Source of the DNA: Bacillota bacterium
Lineage (GTDB): Bacteria; Bacillota; Peptococcia; Peptococcales; BICA1-8
Reading direction: 5' to 3'
Assembly (NCBI GenBank): GCA_049323895.1
Contig: JBMOKT010000017.1
Location: forward strand, 19,041 to 83,040
DNA: 64,000 nt
Below, one piece after another: positions 35,746 to 57,932 of the stretch; position 1 is the first letter of the stretch, and each line of letters opens with the position of its first letter. A model generated the notes under the pieces. That model did no database searches, had not been told where the DNA came from, and was given only the letters and a program-made list of their open reading frames with translations. The position numbers and the translations under genes are program-made.

Positions 35746-35752
35746 CTGGTTA

Positions 35753-37132
35753 TCACCCCACTAATCCCTGCACAATATTCTCCATTTTCATACCCCTGCT
35801 GCCTTTCACTAGTACAACGTCACCTTTGCTAATATTTTTTTGCAGATATTCCAATGCATCATCATTAGTTTGAGCCAGGATAACACTTTCCTGCCTCATT
35901 CCGGCATCCATCGCTCCCATACCGATGAGCATTCCTAAATCTCCAACAGCTACAATTATATCGATTTTTTCCTTATAAGCCACTGCCCCCATTCTTTTGT
36001 GACCCTCTTCCTGGTATCTTCCCAGTTCATACATATCACCTAAAACAGCTATTTTCCTTTGGCCAGACATCCCGGCAAGGACCTTAAGGGCGGCTTCCAT
36101 AGAGGTAGGATTTGCATTATATGTATCATTGACAATTTGCGCTCCCCCTTTACCCTTGACTATCTGTAAACGCATATCCGTTAATTTTACTTCAGCTAAA
36201 CCTTGCTTTATTTCTGCCCAGGAAAGGTTAAGGCTTCTGGCAACCCCTATGGCCGCCAAAGCATTACTGATATTATGTTCTCCCGGGATATTTAAAGTAA
36301 TAACCTCGGTCTGGTCTAGATAATGCACTCTAAATTGGCTCCCGGCTTCCCCCATAATTTTAATTTGGGAGGCAAAAATATCGCTGGGTCCGTGCAACGA
36401 ATACCATTGGACCTCTGCTTTACATTCCTTAAGCCAAGGTTCTATCAACTTTCTATCCTGCAAGTTTAAAAAGGCAGTACCTTCCTGGGGAAGGTTTTTT
36501 AATAGCTCTGCTTTAGCCTGGGCAATTTTTTCCTGGGACCCCAAGAGTTCGGCATGAACCTCACCAATGTTTGTAATGATTCCATGGGTTGGTTTGGCTA
36601 GTTGACACAAGAAATCAATCTGACCCAACCCCCTCATTCCCATTTCCAAGACAACTGCTTCATGGGATTTATTCAGCCCGCACAGGGTAAGGGGCATTCC
36701 CAGTTCATTGTTATAATTTCCTTGGGTATTAAGGGTATTATATCTTTGGGAAAGGAGATGGGAAACCAAATCTTTGGTTGTTGTTTTTCCGGTGCTGCCG
36801 GTAATACCTATAACCGGAATACTTAAATTTTGTCTAACCAATTTTGCTAAATCCTGCAAAAACCTTAAGGGATCCTCGCAAATAATAAGATTTTTGGATT
36901 CAGGATTTGCTACTGCTTTTAAATTATTGATAACGGCACCCACTGCTCCCTGCTGAAGGGCATTTTCCACAAATTCATGTCCATCAACCCTGTGTCCAGG
37001 GAGAGCAAAAAATAAATCTCCGGGCTGGGCTGTTCTGCTGTCTATAATAGCCCTTTGAGGGTAAATATTTGAGTTGCCCTGGTAACGTGCACCTAAAAGT
37101 TTGGCTAGATTTTGCAGATTCAAATCCAACAT
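35753..37132 (-). CDS. murF: UDP-N-acetylmuramoyl-tripeptide--D-alanyl-D-alanine ligase
   Basis: Contains ITGSTGKTTTKDL and DTYNANP. Confidence 0.92.
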   Translation of the reverse strand: MLDLNLQNLAKLLGARYQGNSNIYPQRAIIDSRTAQPGDLFFALPGHRVDGHEFVENALQQGAVGAVINNLKAVANPESKNLIICEDPLRFLQDLAKLVRQNLSIPVIGITGSTGKTTTKDLVSHLLSQRYNTLNTQGNYNNELGMPLTLCGLNKSHEAVVLEMGMRGLGQIDFLCQLAKPTHGIITNIGEVHAELLGSQEKIAQAKAELLKNLPQEGTAFLNLQDRKLIEPWLKECKAEVQWYSLHGPSDIFASQIKIMGEAGSQFRVHYLDQTEVITLNIPGEHNISNALAAIGVARSLNLSWAEIKQGLAEVKLTDMRLQIVKGKGGAQIVNDTYNANPTSMEAALKVLAGMSGQRKIAVLGDMYELGRYQEEGHKRMGAVAYKEKIDIIVAVGDLGMLIGMGAMDAGMRQESVILAQTNDDALEYLQKNISKGDVVLVKGSRGMKMENIVQGLVG

Positions 37133-37134
37133 TT

Positions 37135-38616: not shown

Positions 38617-38690
38617 TAGATTTGACCTCCATCCTATATTTTCCTATAAGTAATATTATAGCCCAACAATACAATGGTTAGAACAATATT

Positions 38691-38734
38691 AATACAAAAG
38701 AGGAAACAGGTCCTTAAGGACCAATTGTTTCCTC
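38691..38734 (-). terminator. Intrinsic terminator overlapping the PBP stop codon, inside the dcw cluster
   Basis: Minus strand reads GAGGAAACAATTGGTCC-TTAA-GGACCTGTTTCCTC-TTTTGTATT. The loop TTAA contains the stop codon. Confidence 0.6.
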
Positions 38735-40837
38735 ATGGGGTTCCTCGTTTGGCGAGGAAAATTGCACTTTTACAATGGTACCCTGCTCCACCTCTGTGCC
38801 TGGATAAGGTTCCTGCAGGGCAGCCAAACCACTTCCTTGAGGAGCCATGCGCAAACCAATATCATTTAATATTTTACTGGCTTCCTTAATAGTTCTGCCT
38901 GTTAAATCCGGTACCACAATTTGTTGGGACTCATTCAACTGGGAATACAATACTACTAAACTGCCTTTTTGAACTGGAGTGCCCGCCGGCGGCAACTGGC
39001 TGATTATCTTATCGCCGTTCCCTTCAACTTTTACTTCAAGTTTTAGGGCTTTTAGTTCTTTGACAGCTGCCTCAGTGTTTTTGTCCTTGACATCTGGCAC
39101 AGTTATTTGCCCACTGGCAGTTTGCGGTTTTTGCTCTAATTCCGGTGGTATCTGCAAATACCGTAATGTATCCAGTATAATATTTCTAAATACAGGTCCG
39201 GCTACCTGTCCCCCATAATATATACCCTGAGGTGAATCAACAATTACCAATGCAGCAATTCGGGGATTGTCGGCAGGTGCAAAGCCGGCGAAAGACGCTA
39301 TATACTCACTGGTAGAATATCCTCCACCGGGAAGTATTTTTTGTGCAGTACCCGTTTTGCCCGCAACCTTATAACCCTCAATATACGCCTTAGAACCAGT
39401 TCCATCACTTACCACTGTCTCTAAAATAGCCCTTAGTTCTTCTGATGTTGTTTTAGAAATTACCTGTCTCTGCGGCTCTGGGTCATTTTTTCTAACCAAT
39501 TTACCTTCATAATCCCTTATTTCCTTTACCAACTGGGGCTTCATCAGCCATCCATCATTGGCAATAGCAGCGACGGCTCTTGTTAACTGAATAGGTGTAA
39601 CTGCATTGGCCTGCCCTATTGACATGGTTGCCAAGTCAATATCCTTAGCCCTAGTCTTGGGTACCAATATCCCATTAGCTTCACCGGGAAGTTCTATGCC
39701 GGTCTTTTGACCAAACCCGAATCCCTCCAAATACTTATAAAAACGGTCCTTCCCCTGCCGTAAGCCTACAGTTACAAAAACAGGGTTGCAAGAATTCTGC
39801 ACCCCCTCTATAAAAGATTGGCTGCCATGGGGGGTCCGGGACCAGCATTTGATAGTTTCCTTTCCTACTTTTATATAGCCCGGGTCATAGAACCTATCAT
39901 TGGGCTTTACAACATTTTCTTCCATAGCTCCCGCAGCGGTTACCGTTTTAAAGGTTGAACCCGGTTCATATGCATCAGATATAGCAAAATTCCGCCAGGT
40001 GCCTTTGTCATAGTCGGCGTAATTATTAGGATCAAAAACAGGTCTATTCGCCAAGGCCAGAATCTCTCCTGTTTTTACATCCAGTACGAGGATAGCACCC
40101 CTTTTTGCCTGCTTAATCTTCATGACCTGGTCCAATTCACGCTCAATTATGTATTGAATAGTCTCATCAATAGTTAAATAAATACTGTTTCCATCAATAG
40201 GAGGAATATATTGGTGCATAGCATTGGGGATTTCCCGGCCCGCTGCATCGTACTCGATCATGATTTTCCCGGAAACGCCCCTCAGTTCCTTATCATATGT
40301 AAGTTCAATACCGTTAAGTCCCTGGTTGTCAATGCCTGCAAAGCCCAAGATATGGGCTCCCAGGGTGCCTTTAGGGTAATAACGCTGGTTTTCCTCTACA
40401 AAATTGATGCCCGGCAAATCCAGTTCCTTTAATTCCTTAACTTTTTCATCAGGCACCCTGCGTTTTATCCATTCAAAAGCTACCTTTTTATTTATCTTTG
40501 CCAGTATTTCTTCTTTATCCAGTTCTAAAACCTTGCTTAAAGTTTCGGCAATTTCATCTGCCCTTTGGGATCGGCGTATTTGGGACGGGACTGCATAAAC
40601 AGAATCAGCACTTACACTAATTGCTAATGGACTACCATTTCGGTCATAAATAATGCCTCGCTTTGCCTTTACGTCGATATTTCTTAATCGACTATCAATG
40701 GCTTTGGCCTGGAGTTCCTTTCCCATTATTAACTGAATCCAGGCAGCCCTAGCCACTAAAAGGCCTAACAGCAAGGCTGAAATTAAAAAGATAAAGCTGA
40801 TTCTTTTTTTCATAGTTAAACTAACCAAGTTGCCCAC
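38714..40837 (-). CDS. Class B penicillin-binding protein (FtsI/PBP2B/SpoVD type) with two C-terminal PASTA domains
   Basis: It has an N-terminal TM segment, a dimerisation domain, transpeptidase motifs STFK, SCN and KTGT, then two PASTA repeats (VPDV..., VPDLTGRT...). Confidence 0.92.
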   Translation of the reverse strand: MGNLVSLTMKKRISFIFLISALLLGLLVARAAWIQLIMGKELQAKAIDSRLRNIDVKAKRGIIYDRNGSPLAISVSADSVYAVPSQIRRSQRADEIAETLSKVLELDKEEILAKINKKVAFEWIKRRVPDEKVKELKELDLPGINFVEENQRYYPKGTLGAHILGFAGIDNQGLNGIELTYDKELRGVSGKIMIEYDAAGREIPNAMHQYIPPIDGNSIYLTIDETIQYIIERELDQVMKIKQAKRGAILVLDVKTGEILALANRPVFDPNNYADYDKGTWRNFAISDAYEPGSTFKTVTAAGAMEENVVKPNDRFYDPGYIKVGKETIKCWSRTPHGSQSFIEGVQNSCNPVFVTVGLRQGKDRFYKYLEGFGFGQKTGIELPGEANGILVPKTRAKDIDLATMSIGQANAVTPIQLTRAVAAIANDGWLMKPQLVKEIRDYEGKLVRKNDPEPQRQVISKTTSEELRAILETVVSDGTGSKAYIEGYKVAGKTGTAQKILPGGGYSTSEYIASFAGFAPADNPRIAALVIVDSPQGIYYGGQVAGPVFRNIILDTLRYLQIPPELEQKPQTASGQITVPDVKDKNTEAAVKELKALKLEVKVEGNGDKIISQLPPAGTPVQKGSLVVLYSQLNESQQIVVPDLTGRTIKEASKILNDIGLRMAPQGSGLAALQEPYPGTEVEQGTIVKVQFSSPNEEPHEETIGP

Positions 40838-40839
40838 TC

Positions 40840-41379
40840 CTAGTTTTTACTTTTCCCCAATAACCAGTGATAAAAAAAATCCTGTACTGTACCCAACCAA
40901 GCCTGTTGTGCAGCAATATTGCCAGTTTGGGAAGACATTGTGTTATTGTCCGGCGCAACAAGCCCTGTTATTTGCACAATGGATGTTTCATTATTTCTAT
41001 GGTTATTTTGTGAAAAAATATAATGAATGGATTGGTTTTGGGGATAGACCATGCCCATCTTCAGTGCAGATTCCTCTATTTTTTCCAAGGAACCAAAACT
41101 TGCTATCTTTAATTTTAACTTCTCATTATTTACTTGTATATTATTAATATTTTTATTCAATTGGGCAATTTGATAGCCTAAAAAATTGATCCAAACATGC
41201 TGAGCAACAAATGCCATCCCCGTTATGAATATTAAGACAATTAAGACCATTGCCGGCGTAGCTTTAAAGAGCCACCATGACTTTTTGGAGGTTGGAACCT
41301 TGTTTGCATTTTTTTTGCTATCTGAGTAGTTCTCCGGTACATAATCTGTACCCACTACCTTTTTATATGCCATTACCAA
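40840..41379 (-). CDS. ftsL: Cell division protein FtsL (longer than usual, 179 aa)
   Basis: It has a single TM segment and then a coiled coil LNKNINNIQVNNEKLKLKIASFGSLEKIEESALKMGMVYP. It occupies the ftsL position between rsmH and the PBP gene. Confidence 0.65.
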   Translation of the reverse strand: MVMAYKKVVGTDYVPENYSDSKKNANKVPTSKKSWWLFKATPAMVLIVLIFITGMAFVAQHVWINFLGYQIAQLNKNINNIQVNNEKLKLKIASFGSLEKIEESALKMGMVYPQNQSIHYIFSQNNHRNNETSIVQITGLVAPDNNTMSSQTGNIAAQQAWLGTVQDFFYHWLLGKSKN

Positions 41380-41606
41380 GGTATTCTCCCTCCTTCAAAT
41401 TTAGAACAAAATTCGTTGATTGGTCTGTTCGTCAAGTCGTCTTTTCGCTCTATATCTGTACTAAAAATAGTTATTGGTGACTGGTGACTAATAAAAATAA
41501 TTAATATATCTGTGTCCACCCGTGTGTGAAAGTCATCCGTGGCTAAATTTTCTCTTTCGACTGGTGCTTGCAACATGTGGGTCTGTGGCCCTGGATCATT
41601 CTCATG

Positions 41607-42542
41607 TCAGAGTTTCAGTGCTGCGCGGAATTTGGCACTCCTTGATCTGGGATTTTTTTTCAATTCAGCTTGAGAGGCTGTTACCGGCTTTCTTGTGAGA
41701 ATCTTTATTTCGGATTGTTTTACACATTGACAAATGGGCAGCTCCGGCGGACAAATACAATCTAATGCTATGTGCTTAAATTTTTCCTTTACAATACGAT
41801 CTTCCAAAGAGTGAAAAGAAATAACACCTATTCTCCCTCCTTTTTTTAACCACTTTACTGCTGTATCTAAAGTATTTTCCAATACTTCTAATTCTCTGTT
41901 AACAGCAATTCTTATGGCCTGAAAGGTTCTTTTAGCTGGATGGGGTCCTTCTTTTCTAGCACCTGCGGGAATCGCGGCCTTTATTATGTCTACTAATTGA
42001 CCGGTAGTTTCAATAGGGGTTTCCTTTCTTCTTGCAACAATAAATTCCACAATACGTTTTGCCCATTTTTCTTCACCGTAATCCTGGATTATTTCAGTTA
42101 ATTGTGTCGGAGAAAAATTATTAATTATGTCATGGGCCGTTAAACTGCCCTCTTGATTCATGCGCATATCAAGGGGTGCATCTTGCATATAGCTAAATCC
42201 CCTCTCCCCTTCATCCAACTGATGGGAGGAAACACCTAAATCAAATAATATTCCGTTAACACCCTGGGGACAGTGTATTTTTAAAACATCGCCCAATCTT
42301 TCATAATTACTGTGCACAAAAATGACATTTTCTTTATACTCCTCAAGGTTTTTTTCCGCAGCTTGCAGGGCGTTGCTGTCCTGATCAATACCAATTAATA
42401 CCCCGCCGGGTTTTAATCTTTTAACAAACTCTTTGCTGTGTCCCCCGCCCCCCAAGGTGCAGTCAACAAAAACTTCACCTGGTTGAGGATCCATTATTTC
42501 AACTATTTCATCCAATAAAACCGGTACGTGTTCGAAATTCAT
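41607..42542 (-). CDS. rsmH: 16S rRNA (cytosine1402-N4)-methyltransferase
   Basis: Contains HVPVLLDEIVE, DCTLGGGGHS and SFHSLEDRIVK. Confidence 0.95.
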   Translation of the reverse strand: MNFEHVPVLLDEIVEIMDPQPGEVFVDCTLGGGGHSKEFVKRLKPGGVLIGIDQDSNALQAAEKNLEEYKENVIFVHSNYERLGDVLKIHCPQGVNGILFDLGVSSHQLDEGERGFSYMQDAPLDMRMNQEGSLTAHDIINNFSPTQLTEIIQDYGEEKWAKRIVEFIVARRKETPIETTGQLVDIIKAAIPAGARKEGPHPAKRTFQAIRIAVNRELEVLENTLDTAVKWLKKGGRIGVISFHSLEDRIVKEKFKHIALDCICPPELPICQCVKQSEIKILTRKPVTASQAELKKNPRSRSAKFRAALKL

Positions 42543-42555
42543 TGTTTACACTTCC

Positions 42556-42993
42556 TTACAGTCCTATATCAAAATCAACCATTTTCTCTGCCAGTTCCTC
42601 ATAAGAGGATTCAGCTTTATTGCTATAGTCTTCCCAAACTTCCTTGCTCCATATTTCTAATCTGGAAGAAACTCCAATAATAAATGTATCTTTTATTAAC
42701 TGGGCATGCTCCCGTAAATTTGTAGGCAGTAATATTCTGCCCTGTTTATCAAGTTCACACTCGGTAGCACCCGAGAAAAAGAAACGGGCAAATGCCCTGG
42801 CGTCAGCTTTTGTAAAGGGAAGGTTGCGCAGTTTGCTTTCCAAGACCTTCCACTCCTCCATAGGATAAACAAACAAACATCCGTCCAAACCTTTAGTTAC
42901 TATAAATTTATCCCCTAAATCATCCCTAAACTTAGCAGGCATGATAAGACGACCTTTATCATCAATTGTATGCTGATATTCACCCATAAACAT
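42556..42993 (-). CDS. mraZ: Transcriptional regulator MraZ
   Basis: [23 protein letters not shown], followed by a second SpoVT-AbrB repeat DKQGRILLP. The start was moved to 42993 because AAAGGTGGTG lies upstream. Confidence 0.92.
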
Positions 42994-49975: not shown

Positions 49976-50274
49976 CCCCGGAAACCTAGCACCTATCTCT
50001 ATAGTATTTTCTATTCGTAAATTTCGCTTTAATTTGACAAAATTCCTTCAACAAAACACTTATCTTTGGTTTCAGATTAGACATCTTCTATTAGTTTACC
50101 AAATAAATAGTCCATTTTAGTCCTATCCCACCTAATTGGCAACATATTACACAGCTGTATTTGTTATAATAATACCATATAATTTGTAAACTTTTTTTCC
50201 TCATTATCACAAGGGAGGAATAGATTAGAGAATTGAGAATTAAAATCTTCATAGCGAAAGGGATGATAATTAAT

Positions 50275-51345
50275 ATGGATAGATTAAAATTAATTCAAGA
50301 ACTGACTGAGCTCCATGGGGTATCAGGCTTTGAAGAAGAGGTAAGGCATTACATAAAGGACAGAATGGAAAAGATTTCCGAAATATCTTATGACAATCTG
50401 GGAAGCATCATCTGCCGCAAACAAGGTACAGATGAGAATCCCCGCATTATGCTGCCCGGGCATATGGATGAAATTGGCTTCTTAGTAAGTGCTATTACCA
50501 AGGACGGGTATCTTAAATTTATACCCCTAGGCGGCTGGTGGGACCAGGTTTTATTAGCCCATAAAGTAATAGTTAAAACTTCCAAAGGAAAAATACCCGG
50601 TATAATCGGTTCTACCCCTCCGCATCTCTTGGATGCAAAAGAGCGGGAAAAGATTGTAGAAAAAAAGGTTATGTTTATTGACGTTGGTGCGGAAAGCAAG
50701 GAAGAAGCCATGGAAAAATTCGGAATTAGACCGGGAGATGTGGTAATCCCAGAGAGTTCTTTCACCCTCATGCATAACCCTAGATACATAATGTCGAAGG
50801 CCTTGGATGACCGCTTGGGGGTAGCTTTATTTATGGAAACCATTGAGGAATTAAGCAAAATAGAACATCCCAATACGGTTTATGGGGTGGGAACAGTTCA
50901 AGAAGAAGTGGGACTGCGGGGTGCACAAACTTCTACAGACTTAATTAAACCCGACATCACCTTTGTCTTGGATGTGGGCATAGCAGGTGATACCCCCGGC
51001 TTAGAGAGCCTGCACATAGATGTCAAGTTAGGAAAAGGTCCCATTCTTCTACTGGCCGACGCTTCCATGATACCTAACAGGACACTTCGGGATTTTGTAA
51101 TAGATACGGCAGCAAGCCAAGGTATTCCCTTGCAATTTACCACCATGATGGGTGGGGGTACTGACGGAGGAGCTATCCACAAGTATGGGGCAGGTGTACC
51201 TTCCGTTGCTTTTGGCATTCCAACCCGTTATATCCATAGCCATAGCAGTCTTTTCCACCGGGAGGATTATGAAAATCTTCTCAGGCTTTTGATTGAAATG
51301 ATAAAAAAACTAGACGCCAGCACTGCAGATTTAATTAGAAAGTAA
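50275..51345 (+). CDS. M42-family glutamyl aminopeptidase (FrvX/CelM type)
   Basis: Contains LTELHGVSGFEE, HMDEIG, DDRLG and QEEVGLRGA. The start was chosen at MDRLKL (50275). The track ORF begins at a TTG at 50233. Confidence 0.88.
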   Translation: MDRLKLIQELTELHGVSGFEEEVRHYIKDRMEKISEISYDNLGSIICRKQGTDENPRIMLPGHMDEIGFLVSAITKDGYLKFIPLGGWWDQVLLAHKVIVKTSKGKIPGIIGSTPPHLLDAKEREKIVEKKVMFIDVGAESKEEAMEKFGIRPGDVVIPESSFTLMHNPRYIMSKALDDRLGVALFMETIEELSKIEHPNTVYGVGTVQEEVGLRGAQTSTDLIKPDITFVLDVGIAGDTPGLESLHIDVKLGKGPILLLADASMIPNRTLRDFVIDTAASQGIPLQFTTMMGGGTDGGAIHKYGAGVPSVAFGIPTRYIHSHSSLFHREDYENLLRLLIEMIKKLDASTADLIRK

Positions 51346-51471: not shown

Positions 51472-52320
51472 ATGTCTTGGATTCACCAAATACCAAAAGA
51501 TTTAGCTGAAAAGGTTGTTCAAATGCTGCATGAGGTTACTGGGAGCAATGTGCATGTCCAAGGGGAAGAGGGTGAAATCATCGCAACTACCCAACCCCAC
51601 AGATTAGGATTCAAACACCCGGCGGCAAAAGCTGTAATGGAAGGCAGCAAACCCTTTGTTGCTATTACGGATGAAGAAGCCGCAAAAATGGAAGGAGTTT
51701 TGGCAGGTTATACCGGTCCCATTATAATGAACGGTAAAAGAATTGCATGTGTAGGTATCACCGGTAACCCTAATTTTGTGGCTCCCCTGCAAAAATTAGC
51801 AGCTGTAATTGTTACCGAAGAAATCCAAAAAGCTGAAATTAATACGGCAAAACAATTGATTATTGATAAGGTTGCTGCAAGGGTTCAGGAAATATCAGCT
51901 GCAGTCCAAGAAATTTCTGCAGGAGCGGAAGAAATTGCCGGTACTAGCAGTTCCTTGGAAAATGTAGCAAAAACTCTGGAAAACCAGGTTAATGATATTA
52001 ATAAAGTTCTAGAACTTATTAGAAACATTGCAGGTCAAACCAACCTGTTGGGTTTGAATGCTGCTATTGAGGCTGCCAGGGCCGGTGAACAAGGGCGTGG
52101 CTTTGCAGTTGTTGCCGACGAAGTGAGAAAATTATCCAGCCATTCAACAAATTCTTTAAAAGACATAAACCAGGTTCTGAATGAAATAAAATCGCTGATC
52201 TTTGATATAACAACTGGTGTCCAGCAAAATGCTACTACAACAAATGAACAAGCTTTAGCACTGCAACAGGTTACCAAAAGCATTTTGGAAATCCAGCAGG
52301 AAATAATGGGATTAACGTAA
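51472..52320 (+). CDS. Soluble fusion of a sugar-diacid-recognition (CdaR N-terminal type) domain and a short MCP signalling tip
   Basis: The N-domain ([23 protein letters not shown]...[30 protein letters not shown]) matches the Diacid_rec pattern. The C-terminal part carries [37 protein letters not shown]. Confidence 0.8.
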
Positions 52321-52322
52321 AA

Positions 52323-52353
52323 AACCGGGCAGTTTTAATTGAACTGCCCGGTT
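52323..52353. terminator. Bidirectional terminator between convergent genes
   Basis: AACCGGGCAGTT-7 nt-AACTGCCCGGTT, a 12-bp perfect stem. Confidence 0.8.
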
Positions 52354-52355: not shown

Positions 52356-53228
52356 TTATTCCCCTGCTAAATACCTTACTATCTCCTTATAAATATCGGG
52401 ACTGTATTGGTCTTCTAATCCGGCATCAATATTAGGGTTATCATTAACCTCAATTACATAATAGTCACCATCTACCTCTTTTATATCAATGCCATAAAGG
52501 CTGTTGCCAATTGCCTTAGCTGCTTTGACGGCTGTCTCCAAAAGCATGGGACTTGCATTTTCTGCTCGTAAACCTTGCACAGAGCAATGCTCACCATCCT
52601 GGGACCTATCCATCAACCGCCAGGTATTCCTGGCAAAAATATATTTTACCACGGCCAGGACTTTTCCATTAAGGACCAGTATTCTCCAATCAAAATCACT
52701 GGGCATATACTGCTGTACAATAATCCTATCGGCCCTGCGCAAAAATCTCTTGCCCACCTTGATAAATTCATCTACCGATTTTACTTTTTCAACATAGGCA
52801 GAAAAACTGGAATTAGGAGCTTTTAATACTAAAGGTATCCCTAACGTCTCAAATAGCTCCTTGGCATTTTCTTTAGTAACTTCTTTGGTATCTAAAAAAG
52901 CTGTTTGTGGTATGGGGACTTCCTTGGCAATCAGTCTTTTGTACATGTTTGCTTTGTCACAACATATTCTAATGCTTTCGGGCTCATCAATTACTCTTAG
53001 TCCTTTCATTTGCGCCATCCTGGCGACAACATAGCTGGTATTCAGCGGGTCAGTCAATGCCCTGATAAATACCGCATCATAATTTCCCAGGTATTTTAAC
53101 TCACTGCGGAAAAGAAAATCCAGTTGGTGTCCCAATTCAAATGCCGCAAGGCGGTAATTGGTCAAAGCGGCAAGTTCCACAGAGCTTCTGATAGTGTACC
53201 GTTCAGTAAAAATTGCTATTTTTGCCAT
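52356..53228 (-). CDS. rimK: RimK-family ATP-grasp alpha-L-glutamate ligase
   Basis: It has the ATP-grasp fold pattern (PLVLKAPNSSFS...IVQQYMPSDFDWRILVLNGK...YVIEVNDNP). Confidence 0.85.
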   Translation of the reverse strand: MAKIAIFTERYTIRSSVELAALTNYRLAAFELGHQLDFLFRSELKYLGNYDAVFIRALTDPLNTSYVVARMAQMKGLRVIDEPESIRICCDKANMYKRLIAKEVPIPQTAFLDTKEVTKENAKELFETLGIPLVLKAPNSSFSAYVEKVKSVDEFIKVGKRFLRRADRIIVQQYMPSDFDWRILVLNGKVLAVVKYIFARNTWRLMDRSQDGEHCSVQGLRAENASPMLLETAVKAAKAIGNSLYGIDIKEVDGDYYVIEVNDNPNIDAGLEDQYSPDIYKEIVRYLAGE

Positions 53229-53824
53229 GTCCCTGACTCCTCAATGATTTTTTTCTCTTTTAATGTAAGCTCATCAAATAACAGCGGCTCTATTGCAGAA
53301 AACAAATAGCGGGAGGTTGTAACAATAACCCTGATTTTCATTAAAGGAATCCTAAAGACCTGGAAGACCGCCTGGGTAAACTCCTCATATTCCTTGACCA
53401 AGGTCTTGCCTAAAACACACCGGACAATATCAATACGGTAGTCTTCCGGCAATCTTTGGCATAGGGTGGCATATTTACCGCTCATGGTGACGGTATTAAG
53501 TTTTTGTTTGAGGTTGTCACTATCTGTAATAACCTCAAACTTGGAAGTATAGGGGTTTATAGGATAGGCTAAAACCGGCGGCACAATTTTTTCGGTAACA
53601 ATCTCATATTCCGGGGTAAAAATATTGTTTAACTTGGCTTTTTCCATTGCAAGGGGTACTACATAAGCGTCCAATGCTTCTTCTGTTGTGGGCATTATCT
53701 TCTCATCCGCCAATTCGGCATCTAACGAAATGTAATACCCAGCAGTGAGATAGGTATAGTCACCAAACATATTTAGAAAAAAATCACCATCATTTTTTAG
53801 CTTAAAAAGAATGGCATTACTCAT
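53216..53824 (-). CDS. RimK-like ATP-grasp N-terminal (RLAN) domain protein, encoded as a separate ORF
   Basis: TYLTAGYYISLDAELADEKIMPT resembles the RLAN motif. Its 3' end overlaps the rimK start by 13 nt. The start was moved to 53824 because GGGGG lies 6 nt upstream. Confidence 0.55.
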   Translation of the reverse strand: MSNAILFKLKNDGDFFLNMFGDYTYLTAGYYISLDAELADEKIMPTTEEALDAYVVPLAMEKAKLNNIFTPEYEIVTEKIVPPVLAYPINPYTSKFEVITDSDNLKQKLNTVTMSGKYATLCQRLPEDYRIDIVRCVLGKTLVKEYEEFTQAVFQVFRIPLMKIRVIVTTSRYLFSAIEPLLFDELTLKEKKIIEESGTWQK

Positions 53825-53861
53825 TTTCTGCCCCCATTCCACACAATAATCTACGTTCTAT

Positions 53862-55187
53862 TTATAATCCTTTTTCGATAAGTTTACAAGGCAAAAAATT
53901 GGCATTTTCTAAATTACTATCCGACTTCATACTGTAACATTTTTGCAGAAAAAGTTTATATTCACTGACAGCTACCTCTTGGGCCAGAAGAGTACGCCTG
54001 TTAATTTCTTCATAATTTATTAATAACAAGTCAACTACATTTTTATCCAACGCCATATTATCAACCATTTTTTTTAGTATATTTATTACTTGGCTTTTGG
54101 GCATACCTTTTCTATATGGCCGGTCTTCCGTCAAAGCTGTAAAGACATCTGCAACAGCCATAATGCGGGAGCCCAAGGAAAGGCTGTCTTCGTTCAAATT
54201 AAATGGATAACCGCTTCCATCCAGTTTTTCATGGTGTAATGATGCCCAATTATTAATTACATTTAATTCTTTGATAGGAAAAAGAGTCCGGTATGTATAA
54301 AAAGTATGGGTTTTAATAATATTAAATTCGTCTTTTGTCAACTGCCCTGGTTTCTCCAAAATTTCACCAGGCACAGCCAGTTTGCCAATATCATGAAGGA
54401 AACCAGCCACTCTCATCATCTTTTGTTCTACAATGGAAAAGGATGACAACTGTGCCAGGCTTTCCGCTGCAGAGGCAACACCGCTGGAATGGCGGGCGGT
54501 AAAAGCTGACCTGAAATCAATAAGATGGGAGAATACTTTGGTAACTGATAACAACTCATCTATGGAAATAGTAAAGTCCCCTAGATTAACCTTGTCTTTT
54601 AATATGGGAACAGTATAATGGGATGCAGCTTCCAGCCAAATATATACCTTGGGGAGCAAATCCTGAAATAGGTGAACTAAATCAGGCATAAACATTTTGC
54701 CTTTTTGTTGGGAAATGGTCTGATATATTCTATCCATTTGGTTTAATATATCTTTTTGAGGATTAATCAAAACTGCAATACGATCGGCTAAATGAACTAT
54801 ATAGCTGCCCAGGGGAATTTCCTGGTTTTCACGGGATTTTTCCCACCAGCAGTGGTGATGCCTAATAATCTCCGCAGCCTTAGCAAAAGGCTGATGTTTG
54901 CTAAGCAGGAGAAACCCATTTATACTATGGTCCGAATCCTTTAATTCAAACTCCAAGGCATCGATTCTTTCCTTTAAAGTTAATCCCCCTATATCATGCA
55001 AAGCAGCAGCCAGGAAAATATCATTTCTTTCTTCCCTGGAAAGTCCCAATTCTTCTGCAAAGCAGTAGGAAAGATAGGCTACCCGCTTATGGTGGTCAAC
55101 TAAAGTAGGGCTGATTAGATCTACTGTATTAGTAATACTCATTACCAGGTCAAACAAAGGTATATTTAAGTTTTTCATAGAATGCAT
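53862..55187 (-). CDS. Tandem HD / HD-GYP domain protein (candidate c-di-GMP phosphodiesterase)
   Basis: The first HD domain carries HHKRV...ALHDIGG. The second carries HSSGV...FLHDIGK...HHEKLDGSGYP. Confidence 0.85.
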   Translation of the reverse strand: MHSMKNLNIPLFDLVMSITNTVDLISPTLVDHHKRVAYLSYCFAEELGLSREERNDIFLAAALHDIGGLTLKERIDALEFELKDSDHSINGFLLLSKHQPFAKAAEIIRHHHCWWEKSRENQEIPLGSYIVHLADRIAVLINPQKDILNQMDRIYQTISQQKGKMFMPDLVHLFQDLLPKVYIWLEAASHYTVPILKDKVNLGDFTISIDELLSVTKVFSHLIDFRSAFTARHSSGVASAAESLAQLSSFSIVEQKMMRVAGFLHDIGKLAVPGEILEKPGQLTKDEFNIIKTHTFYTYRTLFPIKELNVINNWASLHHEKLDGSGYPFNLNEDSLSLGSRIMAVADVFTALTEDRPYRKGMPKSQVINILKKMVDNMALDKNVVDLLLINYEEINRRTLLAQEVAVSEYKLFLQKCYSMKSDSNLENANFLPCKLIEKGL

Positions 55188-55221
55188 CTAACTCCGTTCT
55201 AAACTATATTCAATCCTTAAA

Positions 55222-56055
55222 CTAGGATACTTCCGATATATTTATTGAATTCTTACCGCTGTCTTTTGCCGAATACATTACCCTGTCAGCTGTCTTTACA
55301 AGCTCATTAACATCATTAGGTGCAGTGTTATATACTACTACACCAATACTGAAAGTAATAAACCAGACATTTTGTTTCATGGCATTTAATAAATCCTGCT
55401 GTATCCTTTTGAGAATCAGTTCAGCTTGTTGGCAGCCGCTTTCGGGCATTAGTATTGCAAACTCATCCCCTCCTAATCTGGCAACAAGATCTGTTTTTCT
55501 AATATTTTTCTCAATAACTGAGCCTACTACCGTTAATACCCTATCTCCTACCTCGTGACCTAAAATATCATTCACTGCTTTAAAATTATCTAAATCAAGA
55601 TAAGCAACTGACAGGGGACGCTTATTCCTGCGCAAACGTTCCATTTCCACTTCTGCCCGCTCATAGAAAGCCCTCCGGTTCGCAATCCCAGTTAAGGAAT
55701 CCTCCCGGGCAAAGTTTTTTTCTGAATCCAAAGTACTTCTTAGCATATACAAAGCTAAAACAATAATCATCAGAAAGGAAAATCTTAAGGCGGAGTTGAT
55801 ATAGAAAATACCTGAAGAGAAATTTTCAGGAATTAAGAAGATTTCAATAACGGTCCAAATTATTCCGCTTAAAATTGACATAAATAGACCCGCACCTTCA
55901 CCCACATACCAAGTAACGTAAGAGATAGGAATAAAGTAAAAATAGGAGAAATGGATATCTTTTCCTAGAAAAAAGTCAATAGTGGCAATAAATAGTATTT
56001 GCACAAGCCCGGTGCTAACATAAAATTTATTTGTATGAATACTGTTCGGATTCAA
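55222..56055 (-). CDS. Membrane-bound diguanylate cyclase (GGDEF)
   Basis: Four N-terminal TM segments are followed by DSLTGIANRR and the RLGGDEFAIL active site. No RxxD I-site is evident upstream of GGDEF. Confidence 0.88.
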   Translation of the reverse strand: MNPNSIHTNKFYVSTGLVQILFIATIDFFLGKDIHFSYFYFIPISYVTWYVGEGAGLFMSILSGIIWTVIEIFLIPENFSSGIFYINSALRFSFLMIIVLALYMLRSTLDSEKNFAREDSLTGIANRRAFYERAEVEMERLRRNKRPLSVAYLDLDNFKAVNDILGHEVGDRVLTVVGSVIEKNIRKTDLVARLGGDEFAILMPESGCQQAELILKRIQQDLLNAMKQNVWFITFSIGVVVYNTAPNDVNELVKTADRVMYSAKDSGKNSINISEVS

Positions 56056-56170: not shown

Positions 56171-56210
56171 ATTTATTACCTTGCAAAAATTATACTTTCT
56201 AAATAAGTAT

Positions 56211-56238
56211 AAAAAATCCTGCTTTCGCAGGATTTTTT
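56211..56238 (-). terminator. Intrinsic terminator after the GH18 gene
   Basis: AAAAAATCCTGC-tttc-GCAGGATTTTTT. Confidence 0.85.
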
Positions 56239-56252
56239 ATTTTTTCAATTGT

Positions 56253-57932
56253 CTATCGTTTATTAATAAAATCAGTTATAACAGGCCAAAAGCCCTCCCG
56301 CTCAAAACCCCTCCGCCAACCGGAAATACCCGCCAAATGGTATTTTTTCATTAAATTTATCCTTTGCTCCATAGAAAACTCGTCTTCCAGCCATATGCTG
56401 TATTTAACCCCATCCTTTTCAAGTTCCACATAGTTTTGACCAGTCAGGGGATCCTGAATCGGCTGGAGTTTGTTTTCTTTAACCCAGGCTTCAGCCCTTG
56501 TCATAGAAATGGCTTTGGAGGTCAATTTCCTGTTGCCCTTTTCATCTGTACTCTCTTCCCAGAGCCTGGTGTAAAAGGGCACGCCTAAAATAATCTTCTC
56601 ATTTGGTATCTCTTTCAATATTTGACGTAAGCCTTCCTCAACCCAGGGCAGGGAGGCAACTGAACCTGGATAATTGCTGAAAGTACCATGTTCATCGTAG
56701 GCCATTACTGTCACATAATCCACTATTTCACCCAGGCTTTGGCGGTCATAGCACATAGACCAGTTTTCACTACGGGAAATAAAGGTGACATTTACTGAAA
56801 TGGAGCGGTCCTTCTCATGGAGAAGGGGTGCCAGTTCCCTGACAAATTGAACATAACCTTCTTTGTCTTTTAAATACATGTTTTCAAAATCCAGATTGAT
56901 GCCATCCAGTTGATAGAGATCAACATAAGTAAGTAATTGTTTAATGACCTTAATCCGCAATTCCGGACTGGACAGGAATTGATGGGTTAAATCTTTGTCA
57001 AAACTATTATCAAATAAGCCCCACACCTGGCGTCCTGTTTCATGAGCCCATTGCACATACCTTACGTCACCCTGATTTTTTACTAAACCATCCTTTTCCA
57101 GGCTAAACCATGTCGGTGATACAACATGTAGCCCGGAAAGGTTGGGCAAATTTTTAGGATCTACCGTCTTCCCCCATGCCCCTTCCCAAGTCATTATAAT
57201 TTTTTCTCCTAAGGGGTTCCAAGGCTGGTAGTATTCCCTTGCAATTTCTGCTGTTTTTATTCCTGTCAGCCGTACCATTTTTTTGTCAAGGTAACCCATT
57301 TGTCCACTGATAGTTTCCACCCAGTAGTGACCATTTTCTTCCCGCATAATATAAACATTTTCCCCTTGGCTTATTTCCTCCAGCCAGGGGGATCTATCCG
57401 CAGGATTTTGCCGCAGTTTTCCTGCAGTCAGGACAGTGCCCTCAGTTAAAGGGACCTGAAAATTATGAATTATTGCTACCGATTGTTCCTGCAGATATTG
57501 TATATTCAACTGGTAATATTCATCCAGGGGCTCCGCGGGCAGATAAATATTGCCCTGGTTTTTTACCACAGGGTAGCTGAAGGGATATGGCTCAAGATTC
57601 AGCATCCCCTCCCTTTTTCCCAAGGGAAGGTGGTACACCTCATTGGGTGTTGTAATAATTACCCTTTGTCCTTGTTCGTCCCATTGAATATTAGGGTCAA
57701 TTTTACTCTTGATAAAAGACAGAGGCAGGTATAACTGCTCCTCGTTCAAGAGGGCTGAATCAACTTTTTCCCCCAAATAGTAAATGTGGATATCTTCCGT
57801 TGAATTAAGGGGCACCTTCTTCATAGCAGGCAAATAGTAAACAAAAATTATGGCTAAAAGAACAGCGGCCACTACTACATAACCCAATGGGTTTGCTTTT
57901 GCTTCATGTACTTTTTTAATTTCCGTGGACAT
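56253..57932 (-). CDS. Glycoside hydrolase family 18 protein of the spore peptidoglycan hydrolase type (YaaH/YdhD-like), with N-terminal anchor and SH3-like region
   Basis: It has a TM anchor and the GH18 catalytic region GINLDFENM (DxxDxDxE type). Confidence 0.8.
   Translation of the reverse strand: MSTEIKKVHEAKANPLGYVVVAAVLLAIIFVYYLPAMKKVPLNSTEDIHIYYLGEKVDSALLNEEQLYLPLSFIKSKIDPNIQWDEQGQRVIITTPNEVYHLPLGKREGMLNLEPYPFSYPVVKNQGNIYLPAEPLDEYYQLNIQYLQEQSVAIIHNFQVPLTEGTVLTAGKLRQNPADRSPWLEEISQGENVYIMREENGHYWVETISGQMGYLDKKMVRLTGIKTAEIAREYYQPWNPLGEKIIMTWEGAWGKTVDPKNLPNLSGLHVVSPTWFSLEKDGLVKNQGDVRYVQWAHETGRQVWGLFDNSFDKDLTHQFLSSPELRIKVIKQLLTYVDLYQLDGINLDFENMYLKDKEGYVQFVRELAPLLHEKDRSISVNVTFISRSENWSMCYDRQSLGEIVDYVTVMAYDEHGTFSNYPGSVASLPWVEEGLRQILKEIPNEKIILGVPFYTRLWEESTDEKGNRKLTSKAISMTRAEAWVKENKLQPIQDPLTGQNYVELEKDGVKYSIWLEDEFSMEQRINLMKKYHLAGISGWRRGFEREGFWPVITDFINKR

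What the first reader, a model, noticed from the sequence alone, without database searches (positions are those of the whole stretch)
52356..56055. Four-gene operon coupling a diguanylate cyclase and an HD-GYP phosphodiesterase to a split RLAN + RimK glutamate ligase
The operon is bounded by strong terminators at 56211-56238 and 52323-52353. It encodes, in order, a membrane GGDEF protein, a tandem HD/HD-GYP protein, an RLAN-domain protein and RimK. The gaps between genes are 34 nt and 37 nt, and the last pair overlaps by 13 nt.

In Pseudomonas the rimABK operon couples RimK (glutamylation of ribosomal protein S6) to an EAL-type c-di-GMP phosphodiesterase, and RimK activity responds to c-di-GMP. 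This locus looks like an independently assembled Gram-positive analogue. It uses HD-GYP instead of EAL, adds its own cyclase, and encodes the RLAN domain (usually fused to the ATP-grasp domain) as a separate polypeptide.
Basis: partly seen in the sequence, partly recalled or inferred. Interest (0 to 1): 0.55.

Follow-up and report, generated by a model that had tools for sequence, protein, structure and literature searches.

The report
Conserved two-subunit ligase beside c-di-GMP genes
The four genes are real and probably co-transcribed here, but the "RimK" is a different, widely conserved and uncharacterised two-protein amide ligase whose usual partner is an acetyltransferase. Its adjacency to c-di-GMP enzymes is confined to one small clade, so it is not a demonstrated Gram-positive counterpart of the Pseudomonas RimABK system.

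Summary
Observation confirmed. Four co-directional minus-strand genes encode a membrane GGDEF cyclase, a tandem HD/HD-GYP phosphodiesterase, an RLAN protein and a RimK-like ATP-grasp enzyme. Gaps are 34 and 37 nt and the last pair overlaps by 13 nt. Hairpin terminators flank the cluster.

Interpretation largely not supported.
- The ATP-grasp fails the RimK equivalog model (33 vs 331 bits) and the rimK_fam model (83.5 vs 143.4 bits).
- It belongs to a family always paired with a stand-alone RLAN gene (80/80 genome loci), so "split RLAN" is the norm.
- 75 of those 80 loci also carry a RimI-like GNAT. The module occurs in genuine archaeal contigs, which lack ribosomal protein bS6.
- c-di-GMP genes flank the pair only in one monophyletic clade of six lineages, all lacking the GNAT; only four of them have the GGDEF gene.
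- An HD-GYP orthologue sits in the same chromosomal region without the ligase.
- The closest relative has a terminator-like hairpin and a promoter-like element between the HD-GYP and RLAN genes.

New point: RLAN is predicted to be a degenerate ATP-grasp paralogue, probably a non-catalytic partner subunit.

Substrate unknown. Biochemical coupling to c-di-GMP is possible but unproven.

The parts
56209..56240 (.). Bidirectional hairpin terminator. It ends the upstream GH18 gene (56253-57932) and marks the 5' boundary of the cluster.
   Evidence: 14-pair stem followed by a T-run on both strands. Sequence read.
56189..56194 (-). A perfect TATAAT hexamer about 135 nt upstream of the GGDEF start. It is a candidate -10 element for the cluster, with low confidence because there is no good -35.
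   Evidence: Read from the sequence. The scan did not list it.
55222..56055 (-). Membrane diguanylate cyclase, 277 aa. It has 3-4 N-terminal transmembrane segments, a GGDEF domain, an intact GGDEF active site and an RxxD I-site.
   Evidence: ORF; PF00990, E 1.6e-44; TIGR00254, 158 bits; RKTDLVARLGGDEF at residue 186; hydropathy. The guanine-contacting N...D pair (NDILGHEVGD) was read.
53862..55187 (-). Tandem HD / HD-GYP phosphodiesterase, 441 aa. The N-terminal HD domain has no GYP motif. The C-terminal domain is a canonical HD-GYP. The last ~20 codons read through an ancestral intergenic region.
   Evidence: HD_5, two stretches; HD at 64; HD at 265 plus HHEKLDGSGYP at 318; best PDB relative is V-cGAP3 5z7c, E 1.7e-38; alignment with relatives.
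53861..53889 (-). Promoter-like element TTGTAA-N17-TATAAA. It overlaps the 3' end and stop codon of the HD-GYP gene and is a possible internal promoter for RLAN and the ATP-grasp gene.
   Evidence: Sequence. The same element (TTGTAA-N17-TATAAA) is conserved in the L006 intergenic region, just downstream of a terminator-like hairpin. Function is inferred, not shown.
53216..53824 (-). Stand-alone RLAN protein, 202 aa. It is predicted to be a degenerate ATP-grasp-fold paralogue in which Tyr87 replaces the ATP-binding Lys, and is the probable non-catalytic partner of the downstream ligase.
   Evidence: PF14401; AF2 model, pLDDT 90.4; Foldseek: all 50 listed top PDB hits are ATP-grasp-fold enzymes, TMq 0.48-0.63; hhalign against the partner ATP-grasp profile, probability 60-62%, E 8e-5.
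52356..53228 (-). RimK/LysX-superfamily ATP-grasp ligase, 290 aa, with catalytic residues intact. Its start overlaps the end of RLAN by 13 nt, consistent with translational coupling. It is not a RimK orthologue.
   Evidence: invariant K136, Q172-Q173-Y174, D180-W181-R182, D248, E260-V261-N262; 65-90% identity to homologues across phyla.
52319..52351 (-). Intrinsic terminator: a 10-bp G+C-rich stem, a 7-nt loop and T6 on the minus strand. It lies between the convergent ATP-grasp and MCP-like genes.
   Evidence: Sequence. Fold of -28.8 kcal/mol.

Best explanation
The locus is two modules placed side by side.

**Module 1: a c-di-GMP turnover pair.**
- A membrane GGDEF cyclase with intact A- and I-sites.
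- A V-cGAP3-like tandem HD/HD-GYP phosphodiesterase whose C-terminal domain is catalytic.

**Module 2: an ancient, horizontally spread two-gene ligase.**
- A catalytically competent ATP-grasp enzyme of the RimK/LysX superfamily.
- An RLAN protein encoded by a gene that overlaps the ligase gene.

RLAN is itself a degenerate ATP-grasp paralogue that has lost the ATP-binding lysine. Most likely it serves as a non-catalytic partner subunit, a scaffold or substrate adaptor, in a hetero-oligomer (inferred).

By family analogy, the ligase uses ATP to join an amino acid to a carboxylate on an acceptor that is still unknown (inferred). In most lineages a RimI-like GNAT acetyltransferase, sometimes fused to a DUF3335/C39-like peptidase, works with the pair. 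The window's clade lacks that GNAT at the locus and carries the HD-GYP gene, with or without the GGDEF gene, upstream instead.

In this particular genome the ancestral terminator between the HD-GYP and RLAN genes has eroded. All four genes are therefore probably transcribed together, and ligase expression is likely tied to the promoter of the c-di-GMP genes. Biochemical control of the ligase by c-di-GMP is neither shown nor required.
For: **The RLAN + ATP-grasp pair is the conserved unit.**
- It is present in 80 of 80 genome loci from Deinococcota, Bacillota, Spirochaetota, Planctomycetota and Methanomassiliicoccales.
- The ATP-grasp proteins in the family sample are 65-90% identical to the window's across Bacillota and Deinococcota.
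- The 13-nt overlap is widely conserved.

**GNAT is the usual third partner.**
- A GNAT lies nearby in 75 of those 80 loci and is RimI-like.
- In Deinococcota it is often fused to DUF3335.
- A GNAT-RLAN-ATP-grasp triple fusion exists in a distant branch (P0320).

**RLAN has an ATP-grasp fold.**
- AF2 model pLDDT is 90.
- Foldseek top hits include LysX/ArgX, Ddl and the 5i47 RimK-domain protein.
- hhalign to the partner profile aligns LAYPIN with VLKAPN, so Lys becomes Tyr.

**The ligase looks active.** Its ATP-grasp catalytic residues are invariant.

**The c-di-GMP association is narrow.**
- It is a single monophyletic clade of six lineages.
- The GGDEF gene is missing in two of them.
- An HD-GYP orthologue, 57% identical, lies in the same synteny block without the ligase (L100).
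- The tandem HD/HD-GYP family is very large and sits in unrelated contexts elsewhere.

**Transcription signals.**
- L006 has a terminator-like hairpin plus T8 between the HD-GYP and RLAN genes.
- A TTGTAA-N17-TATAAA element follows that hairpin in L006 and is conserved in the window.
- In the window the hairpin is eroded.

**No sign of a changed function.** There are no clade-specific substitutions at conserved sites of RLAN or the ATP-grasp.
Against: **Points in favour of some selection for linkage.**
- HD-GYP/RLAN/ATP-grasp adjacency survives local rearrangements in all six clade members. The GGDEF gene is lost in two, the GH18 gene is relocated and the downstream genes differ.
- Gain of the HD-GYP gene coincides exactly with loss of the GNAT, which could reflect functional replacement rather than coincidence.

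**Limits of the RLAN inference.**
- The heteromer and pseudo-enzyme roles rest on a predicted structure and a 60%-probability profile match. No complex was modelled.
- Only the Lys-to-Tyr change falls in the confidently aligned region. Loss of the Mg2+ ligands in the C-terminal half is my by-eye reading.

**Other gaps.**
- The substrate and product are unknown.
- The GNAT may simply be encoded elsewhere in this genome; only 64 kb was visible.
Confidence: 0.6

Rival explanations
1. A c-di-GMP-controlled ligase that does not act on S6. In this clade the tandem HD/HD-GYP protein has replaced the GNAT as the module's accessory factor. It acts either as a trigger phosphodiesterase that contacts the RLAN/ATP-grasp complex, as RimA does with RimK, or by setting a local c-di-GMP pool that RLAN or the ligase senses. 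The membrane cyclase, where present, supplies the signal.
For: - HD-GYP is retained directly upstream in 6 of 6 clade members despite rearrangements.
- HD-GYP gain and GNAT loss are strictly exclusive.
- The window has no internal terminator and only a 37-nt gap.
- There is a precedent: Pseudomonas RimK ATPase activity is stimulated by c-di-GMP and by RimA (PMC7343187, PMC10092738).
Against: - The association has a single evolutionary origin, so there is effectively one independent observation.
- Regional synteny of unrelated genes (GH18, MCP-like, M42, SfsA) is equally conserved in these genomes.
- An HD-GYP orthologue is present in the same region without the ligase.
- Relatives have a terminator-like hairpin and/or promoter-like elements between the HD-GYP and RLAN genes.
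- The HD-GYP proteins are only 50-57% identical across the clade, against 85-90% for the ligase.
- There are no clade-specific changes in RLAN or the ATP-grasp.
- Only 2 of the other 77 genome loci have any GGDEF or HD-GYP gene within 8 kb, and those lie 3.8-5 kb away on the opposite strand.
Confidence: 0.22
2. This is an independently assembled Gram-positive analogue of rimABK, in which the ATP-grasp is a RimK that poly-glutamylates ribosomal protein S6 under c-di-GMP control, with RLAN split off from the enzyme.
For: - The protein hits the Pfam RimK domain.
- GGDEF and HD-GYP genes are adjacent.
- RimABK provides a precedent (PMC4741518, PMC7343187).
Against: - The protein fails the RimK equivalog (33.2 vs 331 bits) and rimK_fam (83.5 vs 143.4 bits) models.
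- Its E-values to solved RimK structures are only 1e-9 to 1e-6, no better than to ArgX/LysX. True RimKs are about 65% identical to one another (PMC10092738).
- The same module, with an ATP-grasp scoring 412-422 bits against the window's, lies in archaeal contigs next to aNOP56 and MsvR. Archaea lack bS6.
- There is no RimB-like protease.
- The stand-alone RLAN is the family norm.
- The usual partner is a GNAT.
Confidence: 0.06
3. RLAN is the acceptor or carrier protein rather than a subunit. Its strictly conserved C-terminal G-x-W-[Q/R]-x-COOH tail would enter the ATP-grasp active site and be extended or loaded there, in the way LysW (C-terminal EDWGE) is used by LysX/ArgX.
For: - The Trp at position -3 from the C-terminus is invariant even where the two genes do not overlap.
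- ArgX/LysX are the closest solved relatives of the ligase.
Against: - In the AF2 model, residues 198-200 form a beta-strand that is part of the fold, not a free tail.
- In the distant fused relatives, RLAN is N-terminal to the ATP-grasp and has no free C-terminus.
- The last residue is variable.
- Comparison with the LysW tail is from memory and was not tested.
Confidence: 0.05

Closest known systems
RLAN / RimK-like ATP-grasp (+ GNAT, +/- DUF3335 papain-like peptidase) modules, predicted by comparative genomics (Iyer, Abhiman, Burroughs & Aravind 2009, cited in PMC10318531; Pfam PF14401)
   Same: - The RLAN domain scores above the Pfam threshold and is always next to a RimK-like ATP-grasp.
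- Relatives carry the GNAT or GNAT-DUF3335 partner.
- Fused RLAN-ATP-grasp and GNAT-RLAN-ATP-grasp proteins exist.
   Different: - The window's subfamily encodes RLAN as a separate ~200-aa protein. It matches the Pfam model at only 57 bits, against ~150 bits for the fused forms.
- The window's clade lacks the GNAT and has HD-GYP, with or without GGDEF, upstream.
- No member has been characterised experimentally, as far as the searchable literature shows.
RimK and the Pseudomonas RimABK system (S6 poly-glutamylation controlled by the EAL phosphodiesterase RimA, the protease RimB and c-di-GMP)
   Same: - Both have an ATP-grasp ligase of the same superfamily.
- Both have a c-di-GMP phosphodiesterase gene directly upstream and in the same orientation.
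   Different: - This ligase is not a RimK orthologue.
- The phosphodiesterase is HD-GYP, not EAL.
- There is no RimB-type protease.
- An extra RLAN subunit is present.
- The linkage is confined to one small clade.
- bS6 cannot be the family-wide substrate, because archaeal members exist.
LysX/ArgX amino-group carrier-protein ligases (PDB 3vpb, 3vpd, 5k2m)
   Same: - They are the closest solved sequence relative of the ligase (3vpb, E 9.6e-11).
- They are among the top structural matches of RLAN.
- Both work with a small partner protein.
   Different: - The LysX equivalog model is not passed (72.8 vs 275.6 bits).
- No LysW-like gene or lysine/arginine biosynthesis genes are nearby.
- RLAN is a 200-aa ATP-grasp-like protein, not a zinc-ribbon carrier.
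V-cGAP3 of Vibrio cholerae (PDB 5z7c), a tandem HD-GYP phosphodiesterase
   Same: - It is the best PDB match of the 441-aa protein (E 1.7e-38).
- Both have an N-terminal degenerate HD-type domain followed by a catalytic HD-GYP domain.
   Different: - The match covers only residues 118-375.
- Substrate preference (c-di-GMP or 3'3'-cGAMP) cannot be read from the sequence.
- The neighbouring cyclase has the canonical N...D guanine-contacting residues, read from then on the basis of family knowledge. This favours c-di-GMP.
GNAT + ATP-grasp dipeptide systems (Ngg N-acetylglutaminylglutamine synthetase; NAT8L + RIMKLA/B making N-acetyl-aspartyl-glutamate)
   Same: - A GNAT is combined with a RimK-like ATP-grasp.
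- Both the ligase and the relatives' GNAT give weak hits to TIGR03103.
   Different: - Scores are far below the cutoff (19 and 25 bits against 569).
- Those systems have no RLAN equivalent.
- The window itself lacks the GNAT.
- The nearby M42 peptidase is a generic glutamyl-aminopeptidase type, not the NAGGN-system M42 (62 vs 398 bits).

Membership tests
RimK (ribosomal protein S6--L-glutamate ligase) | Passes the curated equivalog or subfamily sequence models (NF007764/PRK10446; TIGR00768 rimK_fam) | tested here: not met
   33.2 bits against a 331-bit cutoff, and 83.5 bits against 143.4. E 1e-9 to 1e-6 to RimK structures, no closer than to ArgX. True RimKs are about 65% identical to each other (PMC10092738).
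RimK (ribosomal protein S6--L-glutamate ligase) | ATP-grasp catalytic apparatus: ATP-binding Lys, hinge and E-x-N Mg2+ ligands | tested here: met
   K136, Q172-Q173-Y174, D248 and E260-V261-N262 are invariant in 39 family members.
RimK (ribosomal protein S6--L-glutamate ligase) | The substrate is bacterial ribosomal protein S6 with a C-terminal Glu acceptor | not testable with these tools
   rpsF is not in the 64-kb window. There is indirect evidence against: the module occurs in archaeal contigs flanked by aNOP56, MsvR and Fae, and bS6 is bacteria-specific (established knowledge).
RimABK-type c-di-GMP-controlled ligase system | A c-di-GMP phosphodiesterase co-transcribed with the ligase | tested here: inconclusive
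   The window has a 37-nt gap and no terminator. However, a conserved promoter-like element overlaps the end of the HD-GYP gene, and L006 has a terminator-like hairpin there. No transcript data are available.
RimABK-type c-di-GMP-controlled ligase system | A dedicated polyglutamate protease (RimB, retropepsin-like) in the operon | tested here: not met
   there is no protease gene in the cluster. The nearest peptidase is a convergent, generic M42 aminopeptidase that is also present in L100 without the ligase.
RimABK-type c-di-GMP-controlled ligase system | The ligase binds c-di-GMP and is stimulated by it | not testable with these tools
   c-di-GMP sites cannot be predicted from sequence (PMC10092738 says this for RimK itself). 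There are no clade-specific substitutions in RLAN or the ATP-grasp.
RimABK-type c-di-GMP-controlled ligase system | The phosphodiesterase-ligase linkage recurs across genomes | tested here: not met
   Six lineages form one monophyletic clade among roughly 90 distinct loci examined. An HD-GYP orthologue is found without the ligase.
RLAN + RimK-like ATP-grasp module (PF14401 systems) | RLAN domain above the Pfam gathering score | tested here: met
   56.8 bits against a 25-bit cutoff.
RLAN + RimK-like ATP-grasp module (PF14401 systems) | RLAN is fused to, or directly adjacent to, a RimK-like ATP-grasp | tested here: met
   The window shows a 13-nt overlap. The arrangement holds in 80 of 80 genome loci. 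Fused forms exist.
RLAN + RimK-like ATP-grasp module (PF14401 systems) | An associated GNAT acetyltransferase, with or without a DUF3335 peptidase | tested here: not met
   There is no homologue anywhere in the 64-kb window or in L006-L008, L087 or L097. One is present in 75 of 80 genome loci. It may be encoded elsewhere in this genome.
HD-GYP c-di-GMP phosphodiesterase | HD metal-binding motif plus HHExxDGxGYP | tested here: met
   HD at residue 265 and HHEKLDGSGYP at residue 318. The N-terminal HD domain (HD at 64) lacks GYP. NosR-family phosphodiesterase model, E 5.8e-49.
GGDEF diguanylate cyclase | GG(D/E)EF active site and RxxD inhibitory site five residues upstream | tested here: met
   RKTDLVARLGGDEF. 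PF00990, E 1.6e-44.

The most novel reading that the evidence does not exclude
A widely distributed hetero-oligomeric amide ligase made of a catalytic ATP-grasp and a pseudo-ATP-grasp RLAN subunit has been rewired in one Peptococcaceae-like clade. Its usual GNAT partner has been replaced by a trigger-type tandem HD/HD-GYP phosphodiesterase, with or without a membrane cyclase. This would be a second, independently evolved case of c-di-GMP directly controlling an ATP-grasp amino-acid ligase, acting on a substrate other than ribosomal protein S6.
Probability: 0.15. Interest if true: 0.65.

Novelty: new variant of a known kind. Interest (0 to 1): 0.35.

Why it matters
The finding as posed, a Gram-positive RimABK analogue, does not hold up, so it should not be propagated as an annotation or a hypothesis about ribosome modification.

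What remains of interest is the core module. It is an uncharacterised ligase that is highly conserved: the ATP-grasp proteins are 65-90% identical between Bacillota and Deinococcota, and close homologues occur in Spirochaetota, Planctomycetota and methanogenic archaea. It is always paired with a protein that appears to be a dead copy of its own fold, and usually with a RimI-like acetyltransferase.

Identifying its product, whether a small N-acetylated peptide or a protein modification, would fill a gap left open since the 2009 comparative-genomics prediction.

The clade in this window, with HD-GYP in place of GNAT, offers a natural experiment. It can show whether the GNAT is dispensable and whether c-di-GMP feeds into the system.

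Tried and rejected
- **Riboswitch or other RNA element between the genes.** Rfam at gathering thresholds found nothing in the window or in five related loci.
- **Anti-phage defence system.** PADLOC gave no hits for the GGDEF, RLAN or ATP-grasp proteins. The HD-GYP protein gave only generic matches to Cas3/Cas10 models.
- **NAGGN-type trio (GNAT/ATP-grasp + M42 peptidase).** The nearby M42 peptidase is a generic glutamyl-aminopeptidase type (62 vs 398 bits for the NAGGN model). It stays in place in L100 without the ligase.
- **Recent horizontal acquisition of the cluster.** GC and GC3 of the four genes match their surroundings.
- **Neofunctionalisation of the ligase in the HD-GYP clade.** No clade-specific substitutions were found at conserved sites apart from one Leu-to-Val change.
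- **Original RLAN paper.** Iyer et al. 2009 is not held in the library. Its content is cited only through PMC10318531 and from memory.
- **Metagenome scan.** The scan with the single protein returned only 6 loci.
- **Neighbour clustering.** Single-linkage clustering of neighbouring ORFs was noisy in high-GC Trueperaceae genomes. I replaced it with targeted phmmer searches.
- **C-terminal half of RLAN.** hhalign did not confidently align it to the ATP-grasp, so loss of the Mg2+ ligands in RLAN remains a by-eye suggestion.

Full report
**1. The observation**

ORF listing shows four consecutive minus-strand ORFs:
- 55222-56055, 277 aa.
- 53862-55187, 441 aa.
- 53216-53842. This is best started at the ATG at 53824, giving 202 aa. 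That start follows a GGGGG ribosome-binding site and matches the conserved MSNA... start of relatives.
- 52356-53228, 290 aa.

Pfam assigns the four proteins as follows:
- GGDEF, E 1.6e-44.
- Two HD_5/HD stretches, E 4.8e-45.
- RLAN, E 2.6e-15.
- RimK-like ATP-grasp, E 2.7e-14.

Motifs:
- The cyclase has RKTD-x5-GGDEF, so both the I-site and the A-site are intact, and 3-4 N-terminal hydrophobic segments.
- The phosphodiesterase has an N-terminal HD domain without GYP and a canonical C-terminal HD...HHEKLDGSGYP.

Terminators:
- The upstream hairpin at 56209-56240 was found by the scan.
- The downstream hairpin at 52325-52351, followed by T6 on the minus strand, is visible in the sequence. It folds at -28.8 kcal/mol.

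No Rfam family matches anywhere in the window.

**2. The ligase is not RimK**

- Against NCBIfam, the ATP-grasp scores 33.2 bits where the S6--L-glutamate ligase equivalog needs 331.
- It scores 83.5 bits where rimK_fam needs 143.4.
- Against solved structures, its best match is Sulfolobus ArgX (3vpb, E 1e-10). Pseudomonas RimK follows at 1e-9 and E. coli RimK at 1e-6.
- Genuine RimKs are about 65% identical to one another (PMC10092738).

It is therefore a separate family inside the RimK/LysX superfamily. Its catalytic residues are invariant across 39 homologues: K136, the QQY hinge, D248 and E260-x-N262. It is presumably an active ligase.

**3. The conserved unit is RLAN + ATP-grasp, usually with a GNAT**

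The RLAN protein has hundreds of stand-alone homologues of about 200 aa. An exhaustive profile search finds about 80 clusters at 50% identity with E<1e-10, almost all 190-270 aa. The canonical fused RLAN-ATP-grasp proteins of about 490 aa appear only as weak hits.

I scanned one genome per GTDB species and obtained 80 loci. All 80 have the ATP-grasp gene immediately downstream of RLAN, mostly with the same 13-nt overlap.

The taxa include:
- Trueperaceae and other Deinococcota (the majority).
- Bacillota.
- Spirochaetota (Brevinematales).
- A Planctomycetota MAG.
- Methanomassiliicoccales.

The archaeal contigs are genuine. Their neighbours are aNOP56, the methanogen regulator MsvR and Fae. 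Because bS6 is bacteria-specific (established knowledge), S6 cannot be the family's general substrate.

A third component is nearly universal. In 75 of the 80 loci a GNAT acetyltransferase lies next to the pair.
- In Bacillota, Spirochaetota, the archaea and Planctomycetota it is a ~150-aa gene overlapping the end of the ATP-grasp gene.
- In Deinococcota it is a convergent gene, often fused to a DUF3335/C39-like papain-fold peptidase.

The GNAT is RimI-like, scoring 76.9 bits against the 86.4-bit cutoff of TIGR01575. A GNAT-RLAN-ATP-grasp triple fusion (P0320) and an RLAN-ATP-grasp-GCS2 fusion (P0353) exist in distant branches. The GNAT-DUF3335 fusion is noted in PMC10318531, which cites Iyer et al. 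2009. I could not read that paper.

**4. RLAN looks like a dead ATP-grasp**

- An AlphaFold2 model built from 41 homologues has mean pLDDT 90.4.
- Foldseek against the PDB returns 268 matches with E<=0.001. All 50 listed top hits are ATP-grasp-fold enzymes: LysX/ArgX, D-Ala-D-Ala ligases, the 5i47 RimK-domain protein, PsnB/PruB and PPIP5K/Asp1 kinases. TM-scores normalised to the query are 0.48-0.63.
- Profile-profile comparison of the RLAN family with its own partner ATP-grasp family gives 60-62% probability, E 8e-5. It aligns RLAN 27-136 with ATP-grasp 63-185.
- In that register the ATP-binding lysine strand VLK(136)APN corresponds to LAY(87)PIN, so the lysine is replaced by an invariant tyrosine.
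- By eye, the C-terminal LMKIRVIV...AIEPL resembles LYGIDIKE...VIEVN with two Mg2+ ligands lost. hhalign does not support that part confidently.

I infer that RLAN is a degenerate paralogue acting as a non-catalytic subunit. The conserved gene overlap is consistent with translational coupling and stoichiometric co-production. This is inference; no complex was modelled. No solved structure is detectably related by sequence.

**5. How far the c-di-GMP linkage goes**

Among all loci examined, the HD/HD-GYP gene lies directly upstream of RLAN only in six:
- The window.
- L006, Peptococcaceae Bins.048.
- L007, Peptococcaceae BICA1-8.
- L008/L089, Clostridiaceae BRH_c20a.
- L087/L088.
- L097.

(See.)

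A neighbour-joining tree of concatenated RLAN + ATP-grasp places these six in one clade nested among GNAT-type Bacillota. This points to a single evolutionary event. All six lack the GNAT. Relatives just outside the clade, with 73-76% RLAN identity (L090, L091, L098), have the GNAT and no HD-GYP gene. The membrane GGDEF gene is present in four of the six and absent from L087 and L097.

Several observations weaken a functional reading:

a) These genomes also conserve unrelated neighbours: GH18, the Diacid_rec-MCPsignal protein, the M42 peptidase and SfsA.

b) The HD-GYP orthologue P0393 is 57% identical, as close as the within-clade orthologues. In L100 it sits in the same synteny block (MCP-like, M42, SfsA, Asp23, DnaD-like, DnaI-like, M28) with no RLAN/ATP-grasp, GGDEF or GH18 gene.

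c) The ~420-aa tandem HD/HD-GYP family is very large and sits in unrelated contexts elsewhere.

d) Identity across the clade is 85-90% for the ligase and 76-80% for RLAN. It is only 50-57% for the HD-GYP protein and 61-64% for the cyclase.

e) Transcription signals separate the genes in relatives.
- L006 has a hairpin plus T8 right after the HD-GYP stop, followed by TTGTAA-N17-TATAAA.
- L007, L008 and L097 have TTGACG-N16-TATTAT.

f) RLAN and the ATP-grasp show no clade-specific substitutions at conserved positions.

g) Only 2 of the other 77 genome loci have any GGDEF or HD-GYP gene within 8 kb. Those lie 3.8-5 kb away on the opposite strand.

In the window itself the ancestral hairpin is eroded. 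The HD-GYP ORF runs about 20 codons further, through the conserved -35/-10-like element at 53889-53861. Read-through transcription of all four genes is therefore likely here.

**6. Best explanation and rivals**

Best explanation (confidence about 0.6): a lineage-specific juxtaposition of two modules.
- One is a c-di-GMP cyclase/phosphodiesterase pair.
- The other is a conserved two-subunit ligase, a catalytic ATP-grasp plus a pseudo-ATP-grasp RLAN, whose normal accessory is a RimI-like GNAT.
- The ligase most likely joins an amino acid to a carboxylate of an unknown acceptor, either an N-acetylated small molecule or peptide, or a protein.
- Co-expression with the c-di-GMP genes is probable in this genome. 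Biochemical coupling is unproven.

Rivals:
- c-di-GMP or HD-GYP control of a non-S6 ligase, about 0.22. It is supported by the retained adjacency and by the exact HD-GYP-for-GNAT exchange.
- RLAN as a LysW-like acceptor through its invariant G-x-W-[Q/R]-x C-terminus, about 0.05. The model places that Trp in a strand of the fold, and the fused relatives have no free RLAN C-terminus.

**7. Comparison with known systems and novelty**

- **RLAN/RimK-like ATP-grasp/GNAT/DUF3335 modules.** The module belongs to this group, predicted in 2009 and never characterised. No paper in the searchable library mentions PF14401 or RLAN.
- **RimABK.** It resembles this system only in having a phosphodiesterase gene upstream of a superfamily-related ligase. 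It fails the sequence, protease and recurrence criteria.
- **V-cGAP3.** The phosphodiesterase resembles it in architecture.
- **Defence systems.** It is not a known one.

I rate it a new variant of a known but uncharacterised kind. Overall interest is modest. The suggestion that RLAN is a dead ATP-grasp and the HD-GYP-for-GNAT exchange are the two points worth following up.

Noticed in passing
window 53861-53925 (minus strand); L006 7893-8001: The window's HD-GYP ORF is about 20 codons longer than its orthologues (441 aa against 415-426 aa). The ancestral stop and a terminator-like hairpin (GCTGAC-TTTT-GTCAGT plus T8 in L006) have eroded. The ORF now reads through a conserved TTGTAA-N17-TATAAA element, and its stop codon lies inside the -10-like hexamer.
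   Followed up: partly
window 53216-53230 (RLAN C-terminus); alignment A1: Stand-alone RLAN proteins end in a strictly conserved G-x-W-[Q/R]-x-COOH, with the Trp always at position -3. In overlapping gene pairs the Trp codon contains the ATG of the ATP-grasp gene. However, the Trp is also invariant in loci where the genes do not overlap (L003, L020, L048, L085), so the constraint acts on the protein.
   Followed up: partly
window 51472-52320 (+): A 282-aa soluble protein combines a CdaR-type 'sugar diacid recognition' domain with an MCP signalling domain. It has no transmembrane or HAMP region. It is a conserved neighbour in this clade (L001, L087, L100), and its function is unknown.
   Followed up: no
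window 50233-51345 (+): An M42 glutamyl-aminopeptidase-like gene lies about 1 kb from the putative amino-acid ligase and is kept in synteny across the clade. It remains in L100, where the ligase is absent, so it is probably unrelated. It is not the NAGGN-system M42 type (62 vs 398 bits).
   Followed up: yes
P0320 (651 aa), P0353 (975 aa), from the representative search: Natural fusions exist in distant branches of the RLAN family: GNAT-RLAN-ATP-grasp and RLAN-ATP-grasp-GCS2. They act as Rosetta-stone support that GNAT, RLAN and the ATP-grasp work together.
   Followed up: partly
L035 1383-3365 and L073 2283-4289 (Methanomassiliicoccales MAG contigs): The complete RLAN/ATP-grasp/GNAT trio lies in archaeal contigs, divergent from the aNOP56 gene and near MsvR and Fae. 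The ATP-grasp proteins score 412-422 bits against the window's, which points to inter-domain transfer.
   Followed up: partly
L059 5925-6785 (-), Trueperaceae Ww127: A 286-aa GGDEF protein that is unusually similar to the window's cyclase (E 4e-54, 182 bits) lies 3.8 kb downstream of that locus's RLAN/ATP-grasp/GNAT module, on the opposite strand. This is probably coincidental.
   Followed up: no
window ~24400-42600 (minus strand): By ORF order and N-terminal sequences this region appears to be a cell-division/cell-wall (dcw) cluster. It includes an FtsZ-like ORF at 24471-25520 and Mur/FtsW-like ORFs. The assignment is from inspection of ORF starts only and was not checked with profile searches.
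   Followed up: no
whole window 1-64000: No Rfam family reaches its gathering threshold anywhere in the 64 kb. There are no riboswitch, tRNA or sRNA matches.
   Followed up: yes
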